A stretch of DNA of 64,000 bases from Malacoraja senta (Eukaryota), in the NCBI GenBank assembly GCA_038087875.1, contig CM075992.1:1924001-1988000 (forward strand), given 5' to 3'. The notes below the pieces were generated by a model. The model was not told the DNA's origin and did no database searches. It was given only the letters and a program-made list of their open reading frames with translations. Within the stretch, counting starts at the first letter, position 1, and each line of letters opens with the position of its first letter. This document shows, piece by piece, positions 9,178 through 59,777 of the stretch. The translations under genes and the position numbers were made by a program.

Positions 9178-9230
9178 TAAGGTAGACAAAAATGCTGGAG
9201 AAACTCAGCGGGTGAGGCAGCATCTATGGA
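9178..9230 (-). mobile_element. PLE family B arm truncated by the gap
   Basis: AGGTAGACAAAAATGCTGGAGAAACTCAGCGGGTG. Confidence 0.85.
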
Positions 9231-9430
9231 NNNNNNNNNNNNNNNNNNNNNNNNNNNNNNNNNNNNNNNNNNNNNNNNNNNNNNNNNNNNNNNNNNNNNN
9301 NNNNNNNNNNNNNNNNNNNNNNNNNNNNNNNNNNNNNNNNNNNNNNNNNNNNNNNNNNNNNNNNNNNNNNNNNNNNNNNNNNNNNNNNNNNNNNNNNNNN
9401 NNNNNNNNNNNNNNNNNNNNNNNNNNNNNN
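9231..9430. other. Assembly gap (200 N)
   Basis: Run of N; the left contig ends inside a PLE arm. Confidence 0.99.
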
Positions 9431-9594: not shown

Positions 9595-9815
9595 ATGGAT
9601 CCTCCGACGTGTTCGCCCAACACCTTGAAACCCCCGCAGCACCTGTGGAGGCAACCCCGGACCCCCATCAGGATCAAACACCGCGGCTACTCGGACACCG
9701 ACAGGCATGTCCATCCACCCATCGAGCGATCCAACGCCGTGGACACCAGCGACAGACCCGGCCTCAACAAATCCCGCATGTCCTGGCCTTCATCCTTCCA
9801 AGGAACACCCAGACG
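9595..9815 (+). CDS. PDE4A: Alternative first coding exon of a long-form cAMP-specific phosphodiesterase 4 (PDE4A4/PDE4A5-type unique N-terminus); partial CDS
   Basis: Translates [73 protein letters not shown](R). This matches mammalian PDE4A4 motifs ([48 protein letters not shown]). It ends AGACG|GTAGGA, a phase-2 donor as expected for splicing onto the UCR1 exon. PDE4D4 is the main alternative assignment. Confidence 0.85.
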
Positions 9816-9891
9816 GTAGGAACCGAACTCAAATGACTCTGCGGCCAAATGCCACTGACCACCTTGAGAACTGTGAGCGTGAATGGCAGAG

Positions 9892-10151: not shown

Positions 10152-11921
<1,770 letters not shown>

Positions 11922-19091: not shown

Positions 19092-19315
19092 TCAGCCCGA
19101 AGAAGGGCCCCGACCCGAAACGTCACCTATCCACATTCTCCAGAGATGCTGCCTGACCTGTTGAGTTACTCCAGCACTCTGTGAAACGTCACCTATCCAC
19201 GTTCTCCACAGATGCTGCCTGACCTGTTGGGTTACTCCAGCACTCTGTGAAACATCATCTGTCCATGTTCTCCAGAGATGCTGCCTGACCCGCTGAGTTA
19301 CTCCAGCACTTTGTA
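19092..19315 (+). repeat. PLE-derived 66-bp tandem array (x3)
   Basis: Units begin GAAAC at 19117, 19183 and 19249; flanking duplication ATCTCAGARTACAA. Confidence 0.85.
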
Positions 19316-19935: not shown

Positions 19936-20371
19936 TAAATGTGGATCTCCCCACTGCAACGAGAGGATTTGAATTCCAGCTATTAAATAAATCTGCAATA
20001 AAAATACTGTCTCAGTAACGGTGACGATAAAATCACTGGATTGTACTAAACAACCCTACTGTCTGAAGAAGGGTGGCGTGAGGAAAAAATATTTCCACAC
20101 ACCGATTCTCAGTCTGAGTTTTATTATTGTCACCAGCTCTGACTTCCATATTTCAGCTCAAATGTTTCCATGGGAGGGCTGTGCAAAAAGGAACTAGCCG
20201 ACTGTCTAGACTGTAATCTTCAAGTCAATTCATTCTGTATAACCAGCCATCTGCTGGTCAGCTGGTCTCCATGTGCCATCCAAACTTGGAAAAGGGGTTG
20301 CTTGGGCAGCTTACATCCCAGCGGTAGGAACATTGACGTCTCTAACTTCAGATAGCCCTTGCTTTCCCTCT

Positions 20372-20558
20372 CTGAACTGCAAAATACTATATTATTATTT
20401 GTTATTTGCTCTATATTTGTTATTTATTGAACTTTTTCTTTTTTTCCCCGTTATATACAATGTTTACATATTCACATATACTGTTGTGCTGCAGCAAGTA
20501 AGAATTTCATTGTCCCGTCCAGGACATATGACAATAAAACACTCTTGACTCTCGACTC
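20372..20558 (+). mobile_element. Rex1/Babar-type 3' UTR nested in PLE
   Basis: GCAAGTAAGAATTTCATTGTC...GACAATAAA plus CTTGACT-like tail. Confidence 0.75.
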
Positions 20559-20669
20559 ACCATCCCCCTCCCCCTTCCCAGTTCTCCGACCAGTCTTACT
20601 GTCTCCGACTGCATTTTATCTCTGTGTGCTTTGTTGTTACCTTCTCCCAACTAACGATGATCTATTCTA

Positions 20670-20856
20670 AGGTACACAAAAATGCTGGAAAAACTCAGCG
20701 GGTGCAGCAGCATCTATGGAGCGAAGGAAATAGGCAACGTTTCGGCCCGAAACGTTGCCTATTTCCTTCGCTCCATAGATGCTGCTGCACCCGCTGAACC
20801 TCTCCAGCATTTTTGTGTACCTTCGATTTTCCAGCATCTGCAGTTCCTTCTTTAAC
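20670..20856 (+). mobile_element. PLE family B fold-back palindrome
   Basis: Near-perfect inverted arms centred at 20746; TSD ATGATCTATTCTA at 20657-20669 and 21277-21289. Confidence 0.9.
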
Positions 20857-21269
20857 TCGCTAGAATTTAGGAGATTGAGAGGGGATCTTATAGAAACGTA
20901 CAAAATTCTTATGGGGTTGGACAGGCTAGATGCAGGAAGATTGTTCCCGATGTTGGGGAAGTCCAGGACAAGGGGTCACAGCTTAAGGATAAGGGGGAAA
21001 TCCTTTAAGACCGAGATGAGGAAAAACTTTTTCACACAGAGAGTGGTGAATCTCTGGAACTCTCTGCCACAGAGGGTAGTTGACGCGTTCATTGGCTATA
21101 TTTAAGAGGGAGTTAGATGTGGCCCTTGTGTCTATAGGGATCAGGGGGTATGGAGAGAAGGCAGGTACGGGATACTGAGTTGGATGATCAGCCATGATCG
21201 TATTGAATGGCGGTGCAGGCTCGAAGGGCCGAATGGCCTACTCCTGCACCTATTTTCTATGTATCTATG
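20855..21269 (+). mobile_element. Young CR1 3' fragment inserted into a PLE-B tail
   Basis: SLEFRRLRGDLIETYKILMG...; tail TATCTATG. Confidence 0.92.
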
Positions 21270-22020
21270 TAACACAATGATCTATTCTACTTGTTCCTTG
21301 ATCTCTATTCCCTTTGTCCTGTTTTCACACCCTACACTTCTTTATCTATACACTTCCTTATCTATGTACCTCCCACGCCCCTGACATCAGTCTGAAGAAG
21401 GGTCACGACCCGAAACGTCACCCATTCCTTCTCTCCAGAGATGCTGCCTGTCCCGCTGAGTCGCTCCAGCGTTTTATGTCTATCTTCGATTTAAACCAGC
21501 ATCTGCAGTTCCTTCACACACATGCTGCATCTAACTGGTTCATCACTAGGAGAAGGGTGTGAGGTGAAGAGGTTGAGGTTGCAGGAGGGGTCGTGGTGTG
21601 GCAGAGATGGGATCATGATAAACCGAAACAACAAAACCACTGCAGATGCTGCAAATGTAACATGAAATAGAAACGCTTTCTGCCCTGAGCACACGGGTGG
21701 GATCTGTGGGCAGTGTGGGCCTGTCGATGTTTTAGGCCAAAGTGTTAGCACAAGGGGAGCTGATCAGAGCTGTGCAAGTTGGAGGACAAGGCTAAGCCAA
21801 GAAAGGAACAGGCCGGAATTCCTCTCTGAAATTAAAAGCATCTTATCATGGGTTACAGAGAGAGACAACTTCACTTTAAAAGCAGAAGTGCGAGGTTTCT
21901 ATACTTCCGATGCAGACATATATGTAGTTGAAATTGTTGGCTTGTTAAAATGGGTGGAGCTAATTGTATCTAGTAGTCTATATCACTATGGACACCTATG
22001 GGTCCCATATTGACATCTAT

Positions 22021-22173: not shown

Positions 22174-22964
22174 TGTAAACCAGCATCCGCATCTTCCTTC
22201 CTACAAGGAATGAAGAGATCGCTCCTCTCCTTCGGATCATGCATGTCACGGAGATGGAGTGTTTAGCTTCCATAAGCTTGGACTTTGGAGCAGTTCACTC
22301 TGTGTTTTATTGCATGTCTGTACGAGCGTGTGCTGAGATAATGTTTTGAGGACAGATGTCCTTGTCCATTGTTGCGTAGATATGGAGTAATAGATGGGTA
22401 AGAAAGGATAACACCGATCAAATCCTCTTTGCAATACTTGGTGCATTTTTGGAACTGATATGAAGCTGAACTAATGTAAATGTGTTTTGGTGACTCAGTG
22501 CTTCCATACCACCCACAGCTATACTTCTGACTGTTGTTTCCTAATAATCAACACCGATTAGAATACCTTCCCAGTGTTCCCCTGCTCACCGCCATTTCCC
22601 ACCATAAAGGCATTGCTTTACATTGCAAATAGTCCAATGGCTCTCGGCTTCACTTCAGCTGGTCATTGTACTTCACTTTAGCCGTTGTCCATGTGAGAGT
22701 CAGGCATGGAATTGGGTGAACATAAGGGGATTCACAACTGACGCCAGTCCTGTCCGGGCCAGATGTCCACCCATTCAGGAGCAGGAGTCCTGACTCATCA
22801 TTCAGATTAACCTGGCCAAGAATCCAAATGCTAATTATTCCACTCTATTGCACTTTGGCTGGCACAAGCCAACCAACATGCCTATCCAAACTAATCCCAT
22901 TTGTCTCTTCTCTCATATCCCATAATGCTTTCCATGTGCCATTTCAAGCTAGCTCATCTTTTCT

Positions 22965-23985
22965 CTGACATTTCCGCCACCTTCAACGTGATCCCACAAC
23001 TAGTTACATCTTCCCATCCCAACCCATTTCCACCTTAGGCAGAGACCACTGCCTCCGCTACTGCTTGGTTCACCTTCCCACCCAAACCACCATCTCCCCA
23101 CGTACTTTCCCCTACAACCACAGCAGATATAACACTTGTTCCTCACATCTACCCCACCCCCACCTTCTCTCCCCCCCTTTTTTTCCACCCTCTTTACCCT
23201 GTGCCCCATCTGGATTCACACCTATTTCTCACCTCCCCCCCCCTCTTTCCACATATATTCCTTCCTCTGGCTTCTCAATTTCCATCTCTTTTTATGCACT
23301 GCAATGGCAATACGCATTTCACGACACCAATTGTTGTATGTGACTAATAAAGAACCTTTGAACCTTTGAACCTCTTCAATCCTCACCTTCAGTCTCCCAC
23401 TTTTTGTTTTTTCATCTCTGGCTTTGTCCAACCATCTGCAAATCAAACCCCCCCTCCCCCCCCTCACTTGTATCCACCTATCTATCACTTGTCAGGATTT
23501 GTCCTGTCCCCTCTTCCAGATTTCTCCTTCCCAACAGAAACAGTCTAAAGAAGGGCTCCAACCCGAAACTTCACGTATTTGTGTTCTATAGAGATATTGC
23601 GTGACCCACTGAGTTAAGGGCCTGTCCCACTGTACGAGGTAATTCAAGAGCTATCCCGAGTTTCCCCTGATTCGAACTCGGAGAATTACAGTAATAGCCG
23701 TTCGCGGGTACTCGGGGCTCTCGTGGACATTTTTCAACATGTTGAAAAATCTTCACGAGTCTTCACGAGCTTACCGCCTTTCCCGAGTACCTGCCGTTTG
23801 CGTTACGAGCCGCTAAGAGACATCCCCGAGCTCCGACGTACCCGCTACGTACGTTCTACGTGCTTACCACGAGTTTGATTTTTTTTTTAAACTAGGGAGA
23901 GCTCTTGAATTACCTCGTACAGTGGGACAGGGCTATTACTCCAGCACTTTGTGCCTTTTTTTGTCAACCATCCTCTGCAGTGTCT
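22965..23985 (+). mobile_element. Older PLE remnant (ORF linker plus 3' end) with nested Rex tail and MITE
   Basis: FRHLQRDPTTSYIFPS...RTFPYNHSRYNTC is a decayed PLE RT-to-endonuclease linker; decayed pLTR at about 23540-23985. Confidence 0.75.
23617..23935. mobile_element. PIF/Harbinger-like MITE
   Basis: TIR core CCTGTCCCACTGTACGAGGTAATTCAAGAGCT, TTA target duplication (23614-23616 and 23936-23938), central palindrome. Confidence 0.88.
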
Positions 23986-28611: not shown

Positions 28612-29038
28612 GTCTGAAGAAGGGTCTTGACCCGAAACGTCACCCATTCCTTCTCTCCAGAGATGCTGCCTGTCCTGCTGAGTTAAACCCCTGTCCCACG
28701 GTACGAGTTCATTCCAAGAGCTCTCCCGAGTTTGCCCTGATTCGAACTCGGAGATTTACGGTAATGGCCGCTCGTCGGTACTCGGGGCTCTCGTGGACAT
28801 TTTTCAACATGTTGAAAAATCTTCACGCGTCTTCCGTGCTTACCTGCCGTTAGCGAGTCTTCCCAAGTACCTGCCGTTAGTGTTACGAGCCGCTAAGAGA
28901 CGTCCCCGAGCTCCGACGTACCCGCTATGTTCATTCTCCGTGCTTACCACGAGTTTGAATTTTTTAAAACTCGGGAGAGCTCTTGAATGAACTCGTACCG
29001 TGGGACAGGGCTATTACTCCAGCATTTTGTGCCTATCT
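28612..29038 (+). mobile_element. PLE family A arm interrupted by a MITE
   Basis: CTGAAGAAGGGTCTTGACCCGAAACGTC...GAGTTA^CTCCAGC. Confidence 0.85.
28686..29013. mobile_element. PIF/Harbinger-like MITE (second subfamily)
   Basis: TIR core CCCTGTCCCACGGTACGAGTTCATTC; TTA duplication at 28683-28685 and 29014-29016. Confidence 0.88.
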
Positions 29039-30902: not shown

Positions 30903-31216
30903 AGGTAGACAAAAGTTCTGGAAAAACTCAGCGGGTGCGGCAGCATCTATGGAGCGAAGGAAATAGGCAACGTTTCGGGTCGAAATCCTGAAGGAAATAG
31001 GCAACGTTTCGGGTCGAAACCCTGAAGGAAATAGGCAACGTTTCGGGTCGAAACCCTGAAGGAAATAGGCAACGTTTCGGGCCGAAACCCGGAAGGGTTT
31101 CGGGCCGAAACGTTGCCTATTTCCTTCGCTCCATAGATGCTGCCGCACCCGCTGAGTTTCTCCAGCACTTTTGTCTACCTTCGATTTTCCAGCATCTGCA
31201 GTTCCTTCTTGAACAC
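30903..31216 (+). mobile_element. PLE family B palindrome with an internal 34-bp x4 tandem array
   Basis: Units at 30956, 30990, 31024 and 31058; TSD AGTTTGCTAGT. Confidence 0.9.
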
Positions 31217-42065: not shown

Positions 42066-42610
42066 ATTACGGAGAGTCGGTTTGTCAAGGAGGACTCTCT
42101 CTAACTTCTACAGGTGCACAGTAGAGAGCATGCTGACCGGTTGCATCGTGGCTTGGTTCGGCAACTTGAGTGCCCTGGAGAGGAAAAGACTACAAAAAGT
42201 AGTAAACACTGCCCAGTCCATCATCGGCTCTGACCTCCCTTCCATCGAGGGGATCTACCACAGTCGCTGCCTCAAAAAGGCTGGCAGTATCATCAAGGAC
42301 CCACACCATCCTGGCCACACACTCATCTCCCTACTACCTTCAGGTAGAAGGTACAGGAGCCTGAAGACTGCAACGACCAGGTTCAGGAACAGCTACTTCC
42401 CCACAGCCATCAGGCTATTAAACCTGGCTCGGACATAACACTGAACTTTACTAGCCAATACTGTTATTTGCACTTTATCAGTATATTGACCATTGTGTAT
42501 ATATTTATAGAATGCCTTGTAGTAAATGCCTACTATGTTCTGTTGTGCTCAAGCAAAGCAAGAATTTCATTGTCCTACCAGGGACACGTGACAATAAACT
42601 CACTTGACTT
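42066..42610 (+). mobile_element. Young Rex1/Babar LINE 3' fragment nested in an older antisense Rex remnant (~41880-42700)
   Basis: NFYRCTVESMLTGCIVAWFG...LLPSGRRYRS...RFRNSYFPTAIRLLN; GAGTA duplication at 42061-42065 and 42611-42615. Confidence 0.9.
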
Positions 42611-45343: not shown

Positions 45344-45417
45344 AGCAGTGGTAAAATATTTTAGTCGTGCATCAAGAAACACAACCAAGAATATATGGTC
45401 AGAACCAAGAACACAAC

Positions 45418-45807
45418 CAGTCTGAAGAAGGGTTTCGGCCCAAAACGTTACCTATTTCCTTCGCTCCATAGATGCTGCTGCACCCGCTGAGTTTCTCCAG
45501 CATTTTTGTGTACCTTCGATTTTCCAGCATCTGCAGTTCCTTCTTTAACACTTTGTCTACTCCACTGCGAAATCTCGTCAAGGTATGCCTACTTTGAAGA
45601 AGTTCTCCTCCTCTCTCCGGAGACTGTTCCACAACCAACTCTCTAACTGCCCCATCTCTGTGATCCCCCCTGCCCTCCAACTCCAAGACCACATCCTTAC
45701 CCAAAAAAAGCAGTCTGAAGAAGGGTTTCGGCCCGAAACGTTACCTATTTCCTTCGCTCCATAGATGCTGCTGCACCCGCTGAGTTTCTCCAGCATTTTT
45801 GTGTACC
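45418..45807 (+). mobile_element. PLE family B: two direct pLTR arms flanking the probable element 5' body
   Basis: Hammerhead-like motifs at 45422 and 45715; 16-bp TSD ACCAAGAATATATGGT. Confidence 0.85.
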
Positions 45808-46280
45808 AAGAATATATGGTACTACTTTGTCAATGAGTCAATGTGAGAGATGTCACCTGCTAGGTTGCGGACAGGCATCAAAGATCACTTTGGTTTTCAA
45901 GAATTTATGTTATTACAAGAAACGCCTGTGGAAATATGCTCTCTTGTGGAAAAATAAATTCCAGTGGTGCCTTAAATAATGAAGCAAATCAATCTATGGT
46001 GGATGCTTCAAAACCCAGGAGAGGAGTTAAAAGTGAAGAAAATGGGCTATGAAATTTTAGGAACATGGTGGAAAGGCCAAGCGAAGTTGGTGTTTGACGT
46101 AGCGTGCGATTTATTAAAACTGGTGCACCAGGAGACCAGTTAAAGCTGATCTGTCAAGTGTGTGACTTTGGTACATTCACAGATGGAAAGTGTTGCACTG
46201 ACATAAAAAATTGCAAAGGACCAAGTGTGTGGATCAGCCCACTTTCTATGGGCTGGACTAAGTGAATCAGCTGTGTGAAT

Positions 46281-50784: not shown

Positions 50785-51077
50785 GTATAGAAACAATGAA
50801 CTGCAGATGCTGGTTGTCAAAGTGCTGGGGTAATTCAGCGGGTCAAGCAGCATCCATGGAGACCATACAAAAACATCACAAAGCGCTGGAGTAATTCAGC
50901 AGATTATGCAGCATCTCTGGGGAACGTACCAAAAAAGACACAAAGCGCTGGAGTAATTCAAGGGTCAGGCAGCATCCCTGGGGAACACACCAAAAAAGAC
51001 ACAAAGCACTGGAGTAATTCAGGGGTCAGGCAGCATCCCTGGAGAACATTTAAAAAACCCCACAATAGCTGGAGTAA
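50785..51077 (-). repeat. PLE-derived ~61-bp tandem array (x4-5)
   Basis: Repeated CAAAGYGCTGGAGTAATTCA...GCAGCATC. Confidence 0.8.
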
Positions 51078-51276
51078 AAGACTGAATCACCGCTGGGCAT
51101 AGAGCACAGTGCATGTATTGCCTCAGGATGCTGTATCACTAGTACACCATCTCCCAGTGTACATCTCAAACTGTGCATGGTCTCTGGGCATGGCCTCTGG
51201 CCTCTCTCACATACTGAGAGTCTCCTCTCAACGTAGAGCTCCAACCGTGGCGATCGACTCAATGCACAGTATGGAG

Positions 51277-51407
51277 TGTTAAAGAAGGAACTGCAGATGC
51301 TGGAAAATCGAAGGTAGACAAAAATGCTGGAGAAACTCAGCGGGTGCAGCAGCATCTATGGAGCGAAGGAAATAGGCAACGTTTCGGGCCGAAACCCTTC
51401 TTCAGAC
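51277..51407 (-). mobile_element. PLE family B arm with tail
   Basis: Duplication TATGGAGTGTT. Confidence 0.88.
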
Positions 51408-51441
51408 CCTCATATGGAGTGTTTGAATCAGCTCTGGATTT

Positions 51442-53043: not shown

Positions 53044-53162
53044 GTGTAGGAAAGTCCTAAATCGAAGATAGACATAAAATGCTGGAGTAACTCAGCGGGA
53101 CAGGCAGCACCTCTGGAGAGAAGGAACGAGTGACGTTTCGGGTCGAGACCCCTCATCAGACT
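53044..53162 (-). mobile_element. PLE family A arm
   Basis: Duplication TCAATGGCTGAA. Confidence 0.82.
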
Positions 53163-53465
53163 CAATGGCTGAACGCTGGATACAGCAAAGGCTATGGGAT
53201 TGGATCAAATCTCAACTGTCGGAATGAAAACTTGCAAGATCTGTGTTCCAGAAAAATATGTGCGTTTATCCAAGCTGTCCAAGTGTGGTTAGAAGACTAG
53301 TCACAATCCAGCCTGGCTAATCACCACTCAGTCATCAGCAAAACGATGGGATCCATTATCATCAATTCTTTCAAGTGGTATTTACTCATCAATAACGTGC
53401 TCGCCAAAAATGCTCAGTTTGCAGTTTGCCAAGAGCACCCCGCGATGGCACAGGCCGCACTCCAG

Positions 53466-59433: not shown

Positions 59434-59777
59434 AGTCTGAAGAAGGGTTTCGGCCCGAAACGTTGCCTATTTCCTTCGCTCCATAGATGCTGCTGCACCC
59501 GCTGAGTTTCTCCAGCATTTTTGTGTACCTTCGATTTTCCAGCATCTGCAGTTCCTTCTTTAACACAAGGTACACAAAAATGCTGGAGAAACTCAGCGGG
59601 TGCAGCAGCATCTATGGAGCGAAGGAAATAGGCAACGTTTCGACCCGAAACCCTTCCGGGTTTCGTCCCGAAACGTTGCCTATTTCCTTCAGGGTTTCGG
59701 CCCGAAACGTTGCCTATTTCCTTCGCTCCATAGATGCTGCTGCAACCCGCTGAGTTTCTCCAGCATTTTTGTGTACC
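59434..59777 (+). mobile_element. PLE family B three-arm composite with 34-bp tandem unit
   Basis: TSD TTGGATAGAGGCA at 59421-59433 and 59778-59790. Confidence 0.9.

What the first reader, a model, noticed from the sequence alone, without database searches (positions are those of the whole stretch)
21386..21430. Minimal hammerhead-ribozyme motif with covarying stems in the Penelope termini (dozens of copies)
Seen: family A reads CAGT-CTGAAGA-A-GGGT-CTCG-ACCC-GAAAC-GTC-ACCC (this copy has a CACG loop). Family B reads CAGT-CTGAAGA-A-GGGT-TTCG-GCCC-GAAAC-GTT-GCCT. Both keep the CUGANGA/GAAA/NUH core. The differences preserve pairing: U-A to U.G in stem II and in the first stem-I pair, CUCG to UUCG tetraloop, GUC to GUU. 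Stem III is reduced to the palindrome ACGU. Established: PLEs carry minimal hammerheads with palindromic stem III that cleave as dimers, and an extra A after A9 occurs in natural hammerheads. PLE identity is supported here by the GIY-YIG C-terminus at 20298-20355. Inference: sense-strand copies place candidate self-cleaving motifs inside the PDE4A pre-mRNA intron. Caveat: local stem I is only about 2 bp in most copies.
Basis: partly seen in the sequence, partly recalled or inferred. Interest (0 to 1): 0.7.

Follow-up and report, generated by a model that had tools for sequence, protein, structure and literature searches.

The report
Penelope minimal hammerheads in skate intron
The motif is a real minimal hammerhead-ribozyme sequence at the end of a Penelope-like jumping gene, repeated many times in a skate PDE4A intron; this kind has been known since 2014, and these lone copies are likely inactive.

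Summary
Observation confirmed. The hammerhead motif is at 21392-21419. It has 21 exact core matches in the window against 0.06 expected, and 17 copies pass a structural descriptor against 0.2 in shuffles. It matches the published metazoan Penelope minimal hammerhead (Cervera & De la Pena 2014). The Penelope link holds: the GIY-YIG C-terminus at 20299-20355 joins this copy once two nested insertions are removed. The host is a skate and the region is PDE4A intron 1.

Two parts of the reading are weaker. The 'covariation' is one-sided wobble change that also fits an inactive hairpin, which is the predicted fold. Cleavage of PDE4A pre-mRNA is unlikely: stem I is 2 bp, the nearest complete same-strand partner is 7.2 kb away, there is no strand bias, and a relative's RNA shows no end pile-up.

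One useful extra: most copies are 95 or 135 bp insertions, often with target-site duplications. Of 74 hits, 36 reach the ribozyme's 5' edge and none starts at the cleavage site, so uncleaved RNA was likely the template. This scan noted the same kind three times before in sharks. Known kind, low interest.

The parts
21389..21421 (+). Minimal type I hammerhead motif: stem I 5' strand 21390-21391, core CUGAAGA 21392-21398, extra A, stem II 21400-21411, GAAA, palindromic ACGU, predicted cleavage after C 21419, stem I 3' strand 21420-21421
   Evidence: matches the consensus in Fig. S3 of PMC4209133
21389..21523 (+). Family A terminal unit: hammerhead, about 65 nt to the short end (+95), and a roughly 35-nt optional tail to +132
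20299..20355 (+). C-terminus and stop codon of a Penelope-type GIY-YIG endonuclease (5'-truncated element)
   Evidence: high-copy in runs X1 and X14
20356..20373 (+). pLTR piece 1, directly after the stop codon
   Evidence: joint 20373 to 20565-20568 in 69 contigs of X1, 45 of X14 and 68 RNA reads
20374..20564 (+). Nested insertion 1, an unrelated LINE-like 3' end (class recalled, not tested)
   Evidence: skipped by joints; second copy at 42540-42609
20565..20668 (+). pLTR piece 2, ending in the left copy of a 13-bp target-site duplication
   Evidence: joint 20625 to 21378 in 4 and 8 contigs and 5 RNA reads
20669..21276 (.). Nested insertion 2: head-to-head inverted family B pair (20666-20856, joined inside stem II) fused to a CR1-like LINE 3' end (LINE class recalled)
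   Evidence: the 13-bp duplication flanks the whole block
21277..21388 (+). Right copy of the duplication and pLTR piece 3, leading into the hammerhead
22942..23616 (+). Second, older Penelope fragment: RT-thumb-to-linker ORF piece (22942-23157), likely pLTR, then a decayed hammerhead at 23545
   Evidence: tblastn to P0132 E 7e-8 and to P0122 E 1e-12; P0132 is RT plus GIY-YIG by look-alikes
45385..45821 (+). One insertion with two family B units head-to-tail, separated by 160 nt that run on beyond the tail and hold a 43-codon ATG frame; the first core is broken (G12 to A)
59434..59564 (+). Reference family B unit with a complete motif and tail, first part of a unit with a 13-bp duplication
9595..9816 (+). 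PDE4A coding exon 1; the rest of the window downstream is intron for this isoform

Best explanation
The motif is the minimal type I hammerhead sequence in the pseudo-LTR of a skate Penelope-like retrotransposon; in the parent element it would cleave only weakly, as a dimer or with help from the element's protein, and the dispersed copies in this intron are likely inert leftovers. Shown: the motif, its place after a GIY-YIG stop codon, and short insertions with target-site duplications, two 3' ends about 35 nt apart and head-to-head inversions. Inferred: reverse transcription starts internally at +95 or +130 on an uncleaved RNA and usually runs only to the ribozyme's 5' edge, probably a transcript start, which yields the 95 and 135 bp units. 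Inversions would arise by fold-back on the palindromes inside the hammerhead.
For: The motif fits every sequence feature of the published consensus. Penelope ORF remnants lie upstream of two hammerhead copies, and joints in other genomic copies link the post-stop sequence to the hammerhead. 3' ends: 37 of 74 at +85..+102 and 26 of 74 at +125 or beyond. There are 18 head-to-head pairs, and 13 have one short and one long end (hand count), which is the 'tail on one end' signature (Craig 2021). Direct repeats of 8 bp or more flank 13 of 46 units, against a shuffled mean of 0.5 and max 4. 36 of 74 hits reach the core start and 0 of 74 begin at the cleavage site; loose ends before 21387-21390 occur in 787-1282 contigs per position. 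Frangieh 2024 found internal priming on unprocessed RNA, cleavage only with protein, and no RNA-seq ends at the cut site. The core is better kept than downstream sequence in 8 divergent copies (6/80 vs 73/301 mismatches, p 6e-4). For inertness: the predicted fold buries the core; family A stem II has 9/112 mismatches vs 43/975 downstream; there is no strand bias; and no end pile-up appears in RNA run X22.
Against: No full-length element was seen and no RT core lies in the window, so the clade is not fixed. Native stem I is 2 bp, below the 3 bp of the published consensus. Excess core conservation is not significant within family A (3/160 vs 43/975, p 0.19) or between the A, B and C consensuses (0/11 vs 13/60, p 0.20). 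The significant result on divergent copies is biased, because copies were chosen for aligning up to the core. Rfam finds no hammerhead at gathering score or at E up to 10. The transcript-start reading of the 5' boundary has no direct RNA support. The RNA test is weak: a relative's polyA library, about 6% read, dominated by passive copies in both orientations.
Confidence: 0.85

Rival explanations
1. Sense-strand copies act as working ribozymes in the PDE4A pre-mRNA, cutting intron 1 as long-range or trans dimers and affecting PDE4A output.
For: 5 complete motifs lie on the sense strand (21392, 28614, 29916, 45715, 59437). Copy number is very high, so trans partners exist, and the repeat is abundant in polyA RNA of a relative.
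Against: The nearest complete sense partner of 21392 is 7.2 kb away. The dimer hammerhead fold scores -6.1 kcal/mol against -20.6 for two monomer hairpins. There is no depletion or enrichment by strand (37/37 for all hits; 8 + vs 14 - for core-intact copies, p 0.29) and no end pile-up in X22. Published dimers cleave poorly, and 8 of 9 Xenopus dimers did not cleave.
Confidence: 0.04
2. The short units are a self-standing non-autonomous family (SINE-like or retrozyme-like) that is transcribed and mobilised as such, rather than abortive products of full-length Penelope transcripts.
For: Sharp shared 5' boundary, own target-site duplications, young near-identical B copies, and head-to-tail joints genome-wide (21515 to 21390 in 19 and 29 contigs).
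Against: Several copies continue upstream into pLTR and ORF sequence (21392, 23545, 24130, 35657, 41094) or beyond the tail (45422). No tandem array of two intact cores occurs in the window, and head-to-tail joints are few against hundreds of thousands of laid contigs.
Confidence: 0.2
3. The hammerhead is vestigial in these families; the sequence is kept for promoter, splice or protein-binding reasons, and the conserved fold is the alternative hairpin.
For: Stem I is only 2 bp. The alternative hairpin is the minimum-energy fold and is paired in 89.2% of cells, like the hammerhead. Naiad elements proliferate without hammerheads.
Against: The hammerhead pairs exceed column shuffles (covariation score reached in 2 of 500) while the alternative does not (184 of 500), though related sequences inflate this test. 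All 11 core positions are identical in the A, B and C consensuses. Published 2-bp stem I members exist (Drosophila virilis, Culex, Oikopleura), and the D. virilis one cleaved weakly when stem III was extended.
Confidence: 0.12

Closest known systems
Minimal hammerheads (min-HHR) in pLTRs of metazoan Penelope-like elements, Cervera & De la Pena 2014, PMC4209133
   Same: CUGANGA-H core, G10.1-C11.1, GAAA, loopless palindromic stem III (C-G), NUH, position in the pLTR after the RT-EN ORF, mostly single dispersed motifs, and opposite-strand pairs close together.
   Different: Stem I is 2 bp against 3 or more in most listed members, and stem II is 4 bp, at the short end. No cartilaginous fish is among the rows of their Fig. 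S3.
Poseidon element PAc of Anolis, Frangieh et al. 2024, PMC11167929
   Same: Hammerhead followed about 100-130 nt later by two 3' ends that define the tail; unprocessed RNA used as template; no RNA-seq ends at the cut site.
   Different: The skate element is probably Neptune-type (zinc-finger-like linker in relatives; not shown by a tree). PAc activity was assayed and this one was not.
Penelope elements of Adineta vaga and the general PLE layout, Arkhipova 2013 (PMC3846280) and Craig 2021
   Same: Head-to-head inverted pLTRs with palindromes at the junction, optional 30-40 bp tail on one end, 8-10 bp duplications, Inr-like sequence in the pLTR.
   Different: Here the ORF-less 95 and 135 bp units dominate and cover about 10% of the window.
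Non-LTR retrozymes (Li et al. 2026 preprint 10.64898/2026.07.22.740005; Cervera 2020 seen in listing only)
   Same: Non-coding, hammerhead-bearing, derived from PLE pLTRs; reported in one chondrichthyan genome.
   Different: Retrozymes are defined by tandem units with complete hammerheads. Here the copies are monomers or inverted pairs.

Membership tests
Metazoan PLE minimal hammerhead | Core CUGANGA, GAAA and NUH in type I order | tested here: met
Metazoan PLE minimal hammerhead | Extra nucleotide between 9 and 10.1, and G10.1-C11.1 pair | tested here: met
   A after A9; G-C in 28 of 34 rows; features stated
Metazoan PLE minimal hammerhead | Palindromic 15.2-16.2 with no loop III | tested here: met
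   ACGU in the finding copy and most others
Metazoan PLE minimal hammerhead | Short stem I, about 3 bp in the consensus | tested here: inconclusive
   2 bp in 13 of 22 core-intact copies; below consensus but equal to the listed D. virilis, Culex and Oikopleura members
Metazoan PLE minimal hammerhead | Located in the pLTR downstream of a GIY-YIG ORF | tested here: met
Metazoan PLE minimal hammerhead | Weak self-cleavage as a dimer or with protein | not testable with these tools
   needs an in vitro assay; no end pile-up in X22, a weak test
EN+ Penelope-like element | Tail on one end, inverted head-to-head pLTRs, target-site duplications | tested here: met
EN+ Penelope-like element | Single ORF with telomerase-like RT and C-terminal GIY-YIG | tested here: inconclusive
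   only fragments in the window; the homologue P0132 has RT and GIY-YIG look-alikes; Pfam on P0132 gave nothing
Neptune clade of PLEs | Zinc-finger motif in the RT-EN linker | tested here: inconclusive
   cysteine motif present in relatives P0129, P0130 and P0132 but decayed in the window fragment
Neptune clade of PLEs | RT phylogeny | not tested
   no RT core in the window and no reference set held
Non-LTR retrozyme | Two or more consecutive tandem units with complete hammerheads | tested here: not met
   none in the window; a few head-to-tail joints exist elsewhere
Canonical hammerhead families in Rfam | Match to a curated hammerhead model | tested here: not met
   0 hits at gathering score in the window; no hammerhead family at E up to 10 on 21340-21540

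The most novel reading that the evidence does not exclude
Skate genomes record the Penelope mechanism at scale. The transcript starts at an Inr-like TCAGT three bases before the hammerhead core, which leaves stem I too short to fire, and the tail folds back and locks the core. The protein primes reverse transcription inside that RNA and pastes in complete start-to-tail mini-elements of 95 or 135 bp. These would be a very abundant hammerhead-headed short-element class and in vivo proof that the ribozyme is kept off during insertion.
Probability: 0.3. Interest if true: 0.45.

Novelty: new member of a known kind. Interest (0 to 1): 0.2.

Why it matters
The motif class, its place in Penelope termini and its mass dispersal have been described since 2014, so the catch extends the list to skates and no more. 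What hammerheads do in endonuclease-bearing Penelope elements is still open. The end-mapping here bears on that question modestly: no copy starts at the cut site, and copies pile up just before the core. This agrees with the in vitro finding that uncleaved RNA is the insertion template, and it offers a young, high-copy family (B) for testing.

Tried and rejected
No own genome is held, so there is no genome-wide alignment. Scans for related termini found nothing: viral contigs, metagenome contigs and prokaryote genomes. Cross-species covariation therefore could not be tested.

Rfam gave no hammerhead hit. Word-based homologue searches failed for the linker fragment and for the 43-aa frame at 45585, and the atlas gave no usable hit for the latter, so its identity as the Penelope N-terminus is unproven. 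Pfam named neither Penelope fragment nor P0132; NCBIfam and PDB searches on P0132 were blank. BLASTP of the 20221-20352 peptide against P0132 failed, and tblastn of seven homologues missed that site at E below 1; only the ungapped scan and P0125 support it. The upstream pLTRs of the 21392 and 23545 elements are not detectably similar (score 52 vs shuffled mean 56), so they are different families.

Run X21 was uninformative (36 reads). The joint across nested insertion 2 is not among the 15 joints shown (4,062 not shown), so that step rests on the 13-bp duplication and on the 20625 to 21378 joint.

Rejected: 5' ends set by ribozyme cleavage (0 of 74). Rejected: 5' ends from a spliced RNA with a shared first exon, since upstream bases have no majority beyond about 5 nt. 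A cap-derived extra G was looked for by eye and not seen consistently. Lunse et al. 2017 is not held and is cited through the review PMC6765202.

Full report
Setting. The window is from a skate or close relative: the frame at 9595-9816 (+) is 99% identical to little skate PDE4A and ranks next with other cartilaginous fish. It is coding exon 1. No later PDE4A exon maps in the window, so the finding lies in intron 1 on the sense strand. No whole genome is held.

The motif. The core pattern occurs 21 times against 0.06 expected, and a structure descriptor finds 17 motifs against 0.2 in shuffles. All 17 belong to one repeat, which gives 74 BLAST hits, 37 per strand, covering 6,666 bp. Of the 36 copies that reach the core start, 22 keep the core and 13 are complete (core, 4-bp stem II, paired 15.2-16.2, stem I of 2 bp or more). 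Rfam has no matching hammerhead model. Against the consensus of Cervera & De la Pena 2014 (PMC4209133; I read parts 1-2 of 4 of the text and parts 1-2 of 3 of the supplement) the motif has the CUGANGAH core, the extra base, G10.1-C11.1, GAAA, the loopless palindrome and NUH. Stem I is 2 bp in 13 of 22 core-intact copies. The longer stems (24371, 28614, 51405, 52437, 53159) take 5' bases that differ from the native pLTR and are at least partly flanking DNA.

Penelope identity. The 19 codons at 20299-20355 are the best of 127,882 positions for the C-terminus of whale-shark protein P0125 and end at a stop in the same place. They lie 1 kb from the motif, but two insertions intervene. The first (20374-20564) is skipped by 69 contigs of run X1, 45 of X14 and 68 RNA reads of X22. 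The second (20669-21276) is bounded by a 13-bp duplication. A further joint, 20625 to 21378, links the post-stop sequence to the hammerhead directly in 4 and 8 contigs and 5 reads. With the insertions removed, about 225 nt separate stop codon and core. A second element at 22942-23616 has an ORF piece matching shark and ray proteins, among them stingray P0132, whose look-alikes carry RT and GIY-YIG domains, and it ends in a decayed hammerhead at 23545. Relatives show a cysteine motif in the RT-EN linker, a mark of Neptune and Nematis (Craig 2021, passages read). No tree was built, so the clade is a lead only.

Anatomy of the copies. The 3' ends fall in two groups about 35 nt apart: 37 of 74 at +85..+102 and 26 of 74 at +125 or beyond, counted from C3, with 11 elsewhere. 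There are 18 head-to-head pairs; 13 have one short and one long end (my count; the script flagged 15, two of which end at +41 and +45). Many junctions lie in the hammerhead's own palindromes. Direct repeats of 8 bp or more flank 13 of 46 units against 0.5 by chance. These are the tail, inversion and duplication signatures described for Penelope elements (passages read). At the 5' side, 36 of 74 hits reach the core start, 23 start at +4..+25, none at +26..+32 where cleavage would put them, and 15 later. The reference began three bases before C3, so the 36 include about 5-8 copies with longer native pLTR. In the rest, shared sequence stops at AGT (T 29/36, G 30/36, A 26/36, C 14/36, no majority by about 7 nt). 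The same boundary shows genome-wide as loose ends before 21387-21390 in 787-1282 contigs per position.

How it likely works. Frangieh 2024 (PMC11167929, parts 1-2 of 4 read) showed for an anole element that reverse transcription starts at two internal sites that define the tail, that unprocessed RNA is the main template, that the hammerhead cuts only with the element's protein, and that RNA-seq has no ends at the cut site. The skate copies fit this. Priming at +95 or +130 and copying to the RNA's 5' end gives the two unit sizes with the ribozyme uncut. The native upstream TCAGTC resembles an initiator (consensus recalled), and pLTR promoters with Inr-like sites are described in Drosophila and Adineta (passages). 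So the boundary is probably a transcript start; a reverse-transcriptase stop is the alternative. These steps are inferred.

Covariation and conservation. On 34 aligned copies (two of the 36 left out, 38610 and 39174, which have deletions in the motif) the hammerhead pairs hold in 89.2% of cells and exceed shuffles (covariation score reached in 2 of 500). Only 5 of 204 cells change on both sides, and the A/B differences are one-sided wobbles. A rival hairpin, in which the 5' strand of stem II and the core pair with sequence after the cut site, also holds in 89.2% of cells but does not exceed shuffles. It is the minimum-energy fold of the finding copy (probability 0.92 in context, stem II 0.00). 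Core conservation is not significant within family A (3/160 vs 43/975, p 0.19) or among three subfamily consensuses (0/11 vs 13/60, p 0.20). It is significant in 8 divergent copies (6/80 vs 73/301, p 6e-4), with a selection bias toward copies that align up to the core. This suggests the core was kept in the parent lineages but not in inserted copies.

Cleavage in the PDE4A intron. Five complete motifs are on the sense strand; the nearest to 21392 is 7.2 kb away. The dimer hammerhead scores -6.1 kcal/mol against -20.6 for two monomer folds, though nearest-neighbour energies omit core tertiary contacts. Orientation is unbiased (p 0.29 and 0.58). In polyA RNA of a relative, 45,589 reads were laid, depth near the motif was about 4,600 and 4,400 by direction, and no start or end pile-up was found. 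That test is weak, because it is another species, about 6% of the run was read, and the copies are passive. Published dimers cleave weakly and 8 of 9 Xenopus dimers did not cleave (Li 2026 preprint, parts 1-3 of 5 read). I put intronic cleavage at about 4%.

Novelty. The kind is known. A published description of this skate family did not turn up in four searches (Penelope + hammerhead ribozyme + shark, whose one hit used 'shark' only for the ribozyme's shape; Penelope + skate + Leucoraja + transposable elements; Penelope + Chondrichthyes + genome + Neptune; Penelope + elasmobranch, listings only). The library lacks subscription papers and Repbase, Lunse 2017 is not held, and the closed supplements of the 2026 preprint, which reports retrozymes in one chondrichthyan, may list related families. 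Three earlier notes of this scan describe the same kind in shark genomes; they agree with this reading but were not used as evidence. Verdict: correct catch, new member of a known kind, interest 0.2.

Noticed in passing
window 23617-23935 and 28686-29013: Two related copies of a roughly 320-bp element with terminal inverted repeats and a central palindrome sit at exactly the same base (+72) of Penelope units from two different subfamilies, which suggests target-site preference. A third copy (6663) is broken at the same base by a TAAG repeat and other sequence.
   Followed up: partly
window 45385-45821: One insertion holds two family B units head-to-tail on the PDE4A sense strand, with a 160-nt spacer carrying a 43-codon ATG frame that may be the Penelope ORF start. 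No homologue was found. The first core is broken.
   Followed up: partly
window 53126-53164 (-): This copy has a CUGAUGA core and a 5-bp stem I, partly supplied by target DNA. It is the only one of 36 predicted to populate stem I (probability 0.36). It is antisense to PDE4A.
   Followed up: partly
window 20669-21276: A family B inverted pair and a 5'-truncated CR1-like LINE end share one 13-bp target-site duplication, possibly a chimeric insertion.
   Followed up: partly
window 30956-31096 and 59652-59724: 34-nt tandem repeats of the hammerhead's 3' half lie at inversion junctions of family B, as if reverse transcriptase stuttered there.
   Followed up: no
window 59434-59566, 45419-45551, 51276-51408: In family B the tail is predicted to pair with the catalytic core (probability 0.96-0.99); in seven family A copies the figure is 0-0.54. 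Folding only, no covariation.
   Followed up: partly
window 19117-19314 and 50818-51049: Tandem arrays of 66 and 61 nt are made from core-less parts of the Penelope terminus.
   Followed up: no
window 10154-11921: A 1.8-kb AC dinucleotide run lies just after PDE4A exon 1; a 200-base N gap lies near 9230-9430.
   Followed up: no
window 21428-21443 and 59463-59485: A pyrimidine tract ending in CAG or TAG just before an ATG, about 50 nt after the core start, looks like a splice acceptor in both families. The ATG frame is open through the tail in B and has a stop in A.
   Followed up: no
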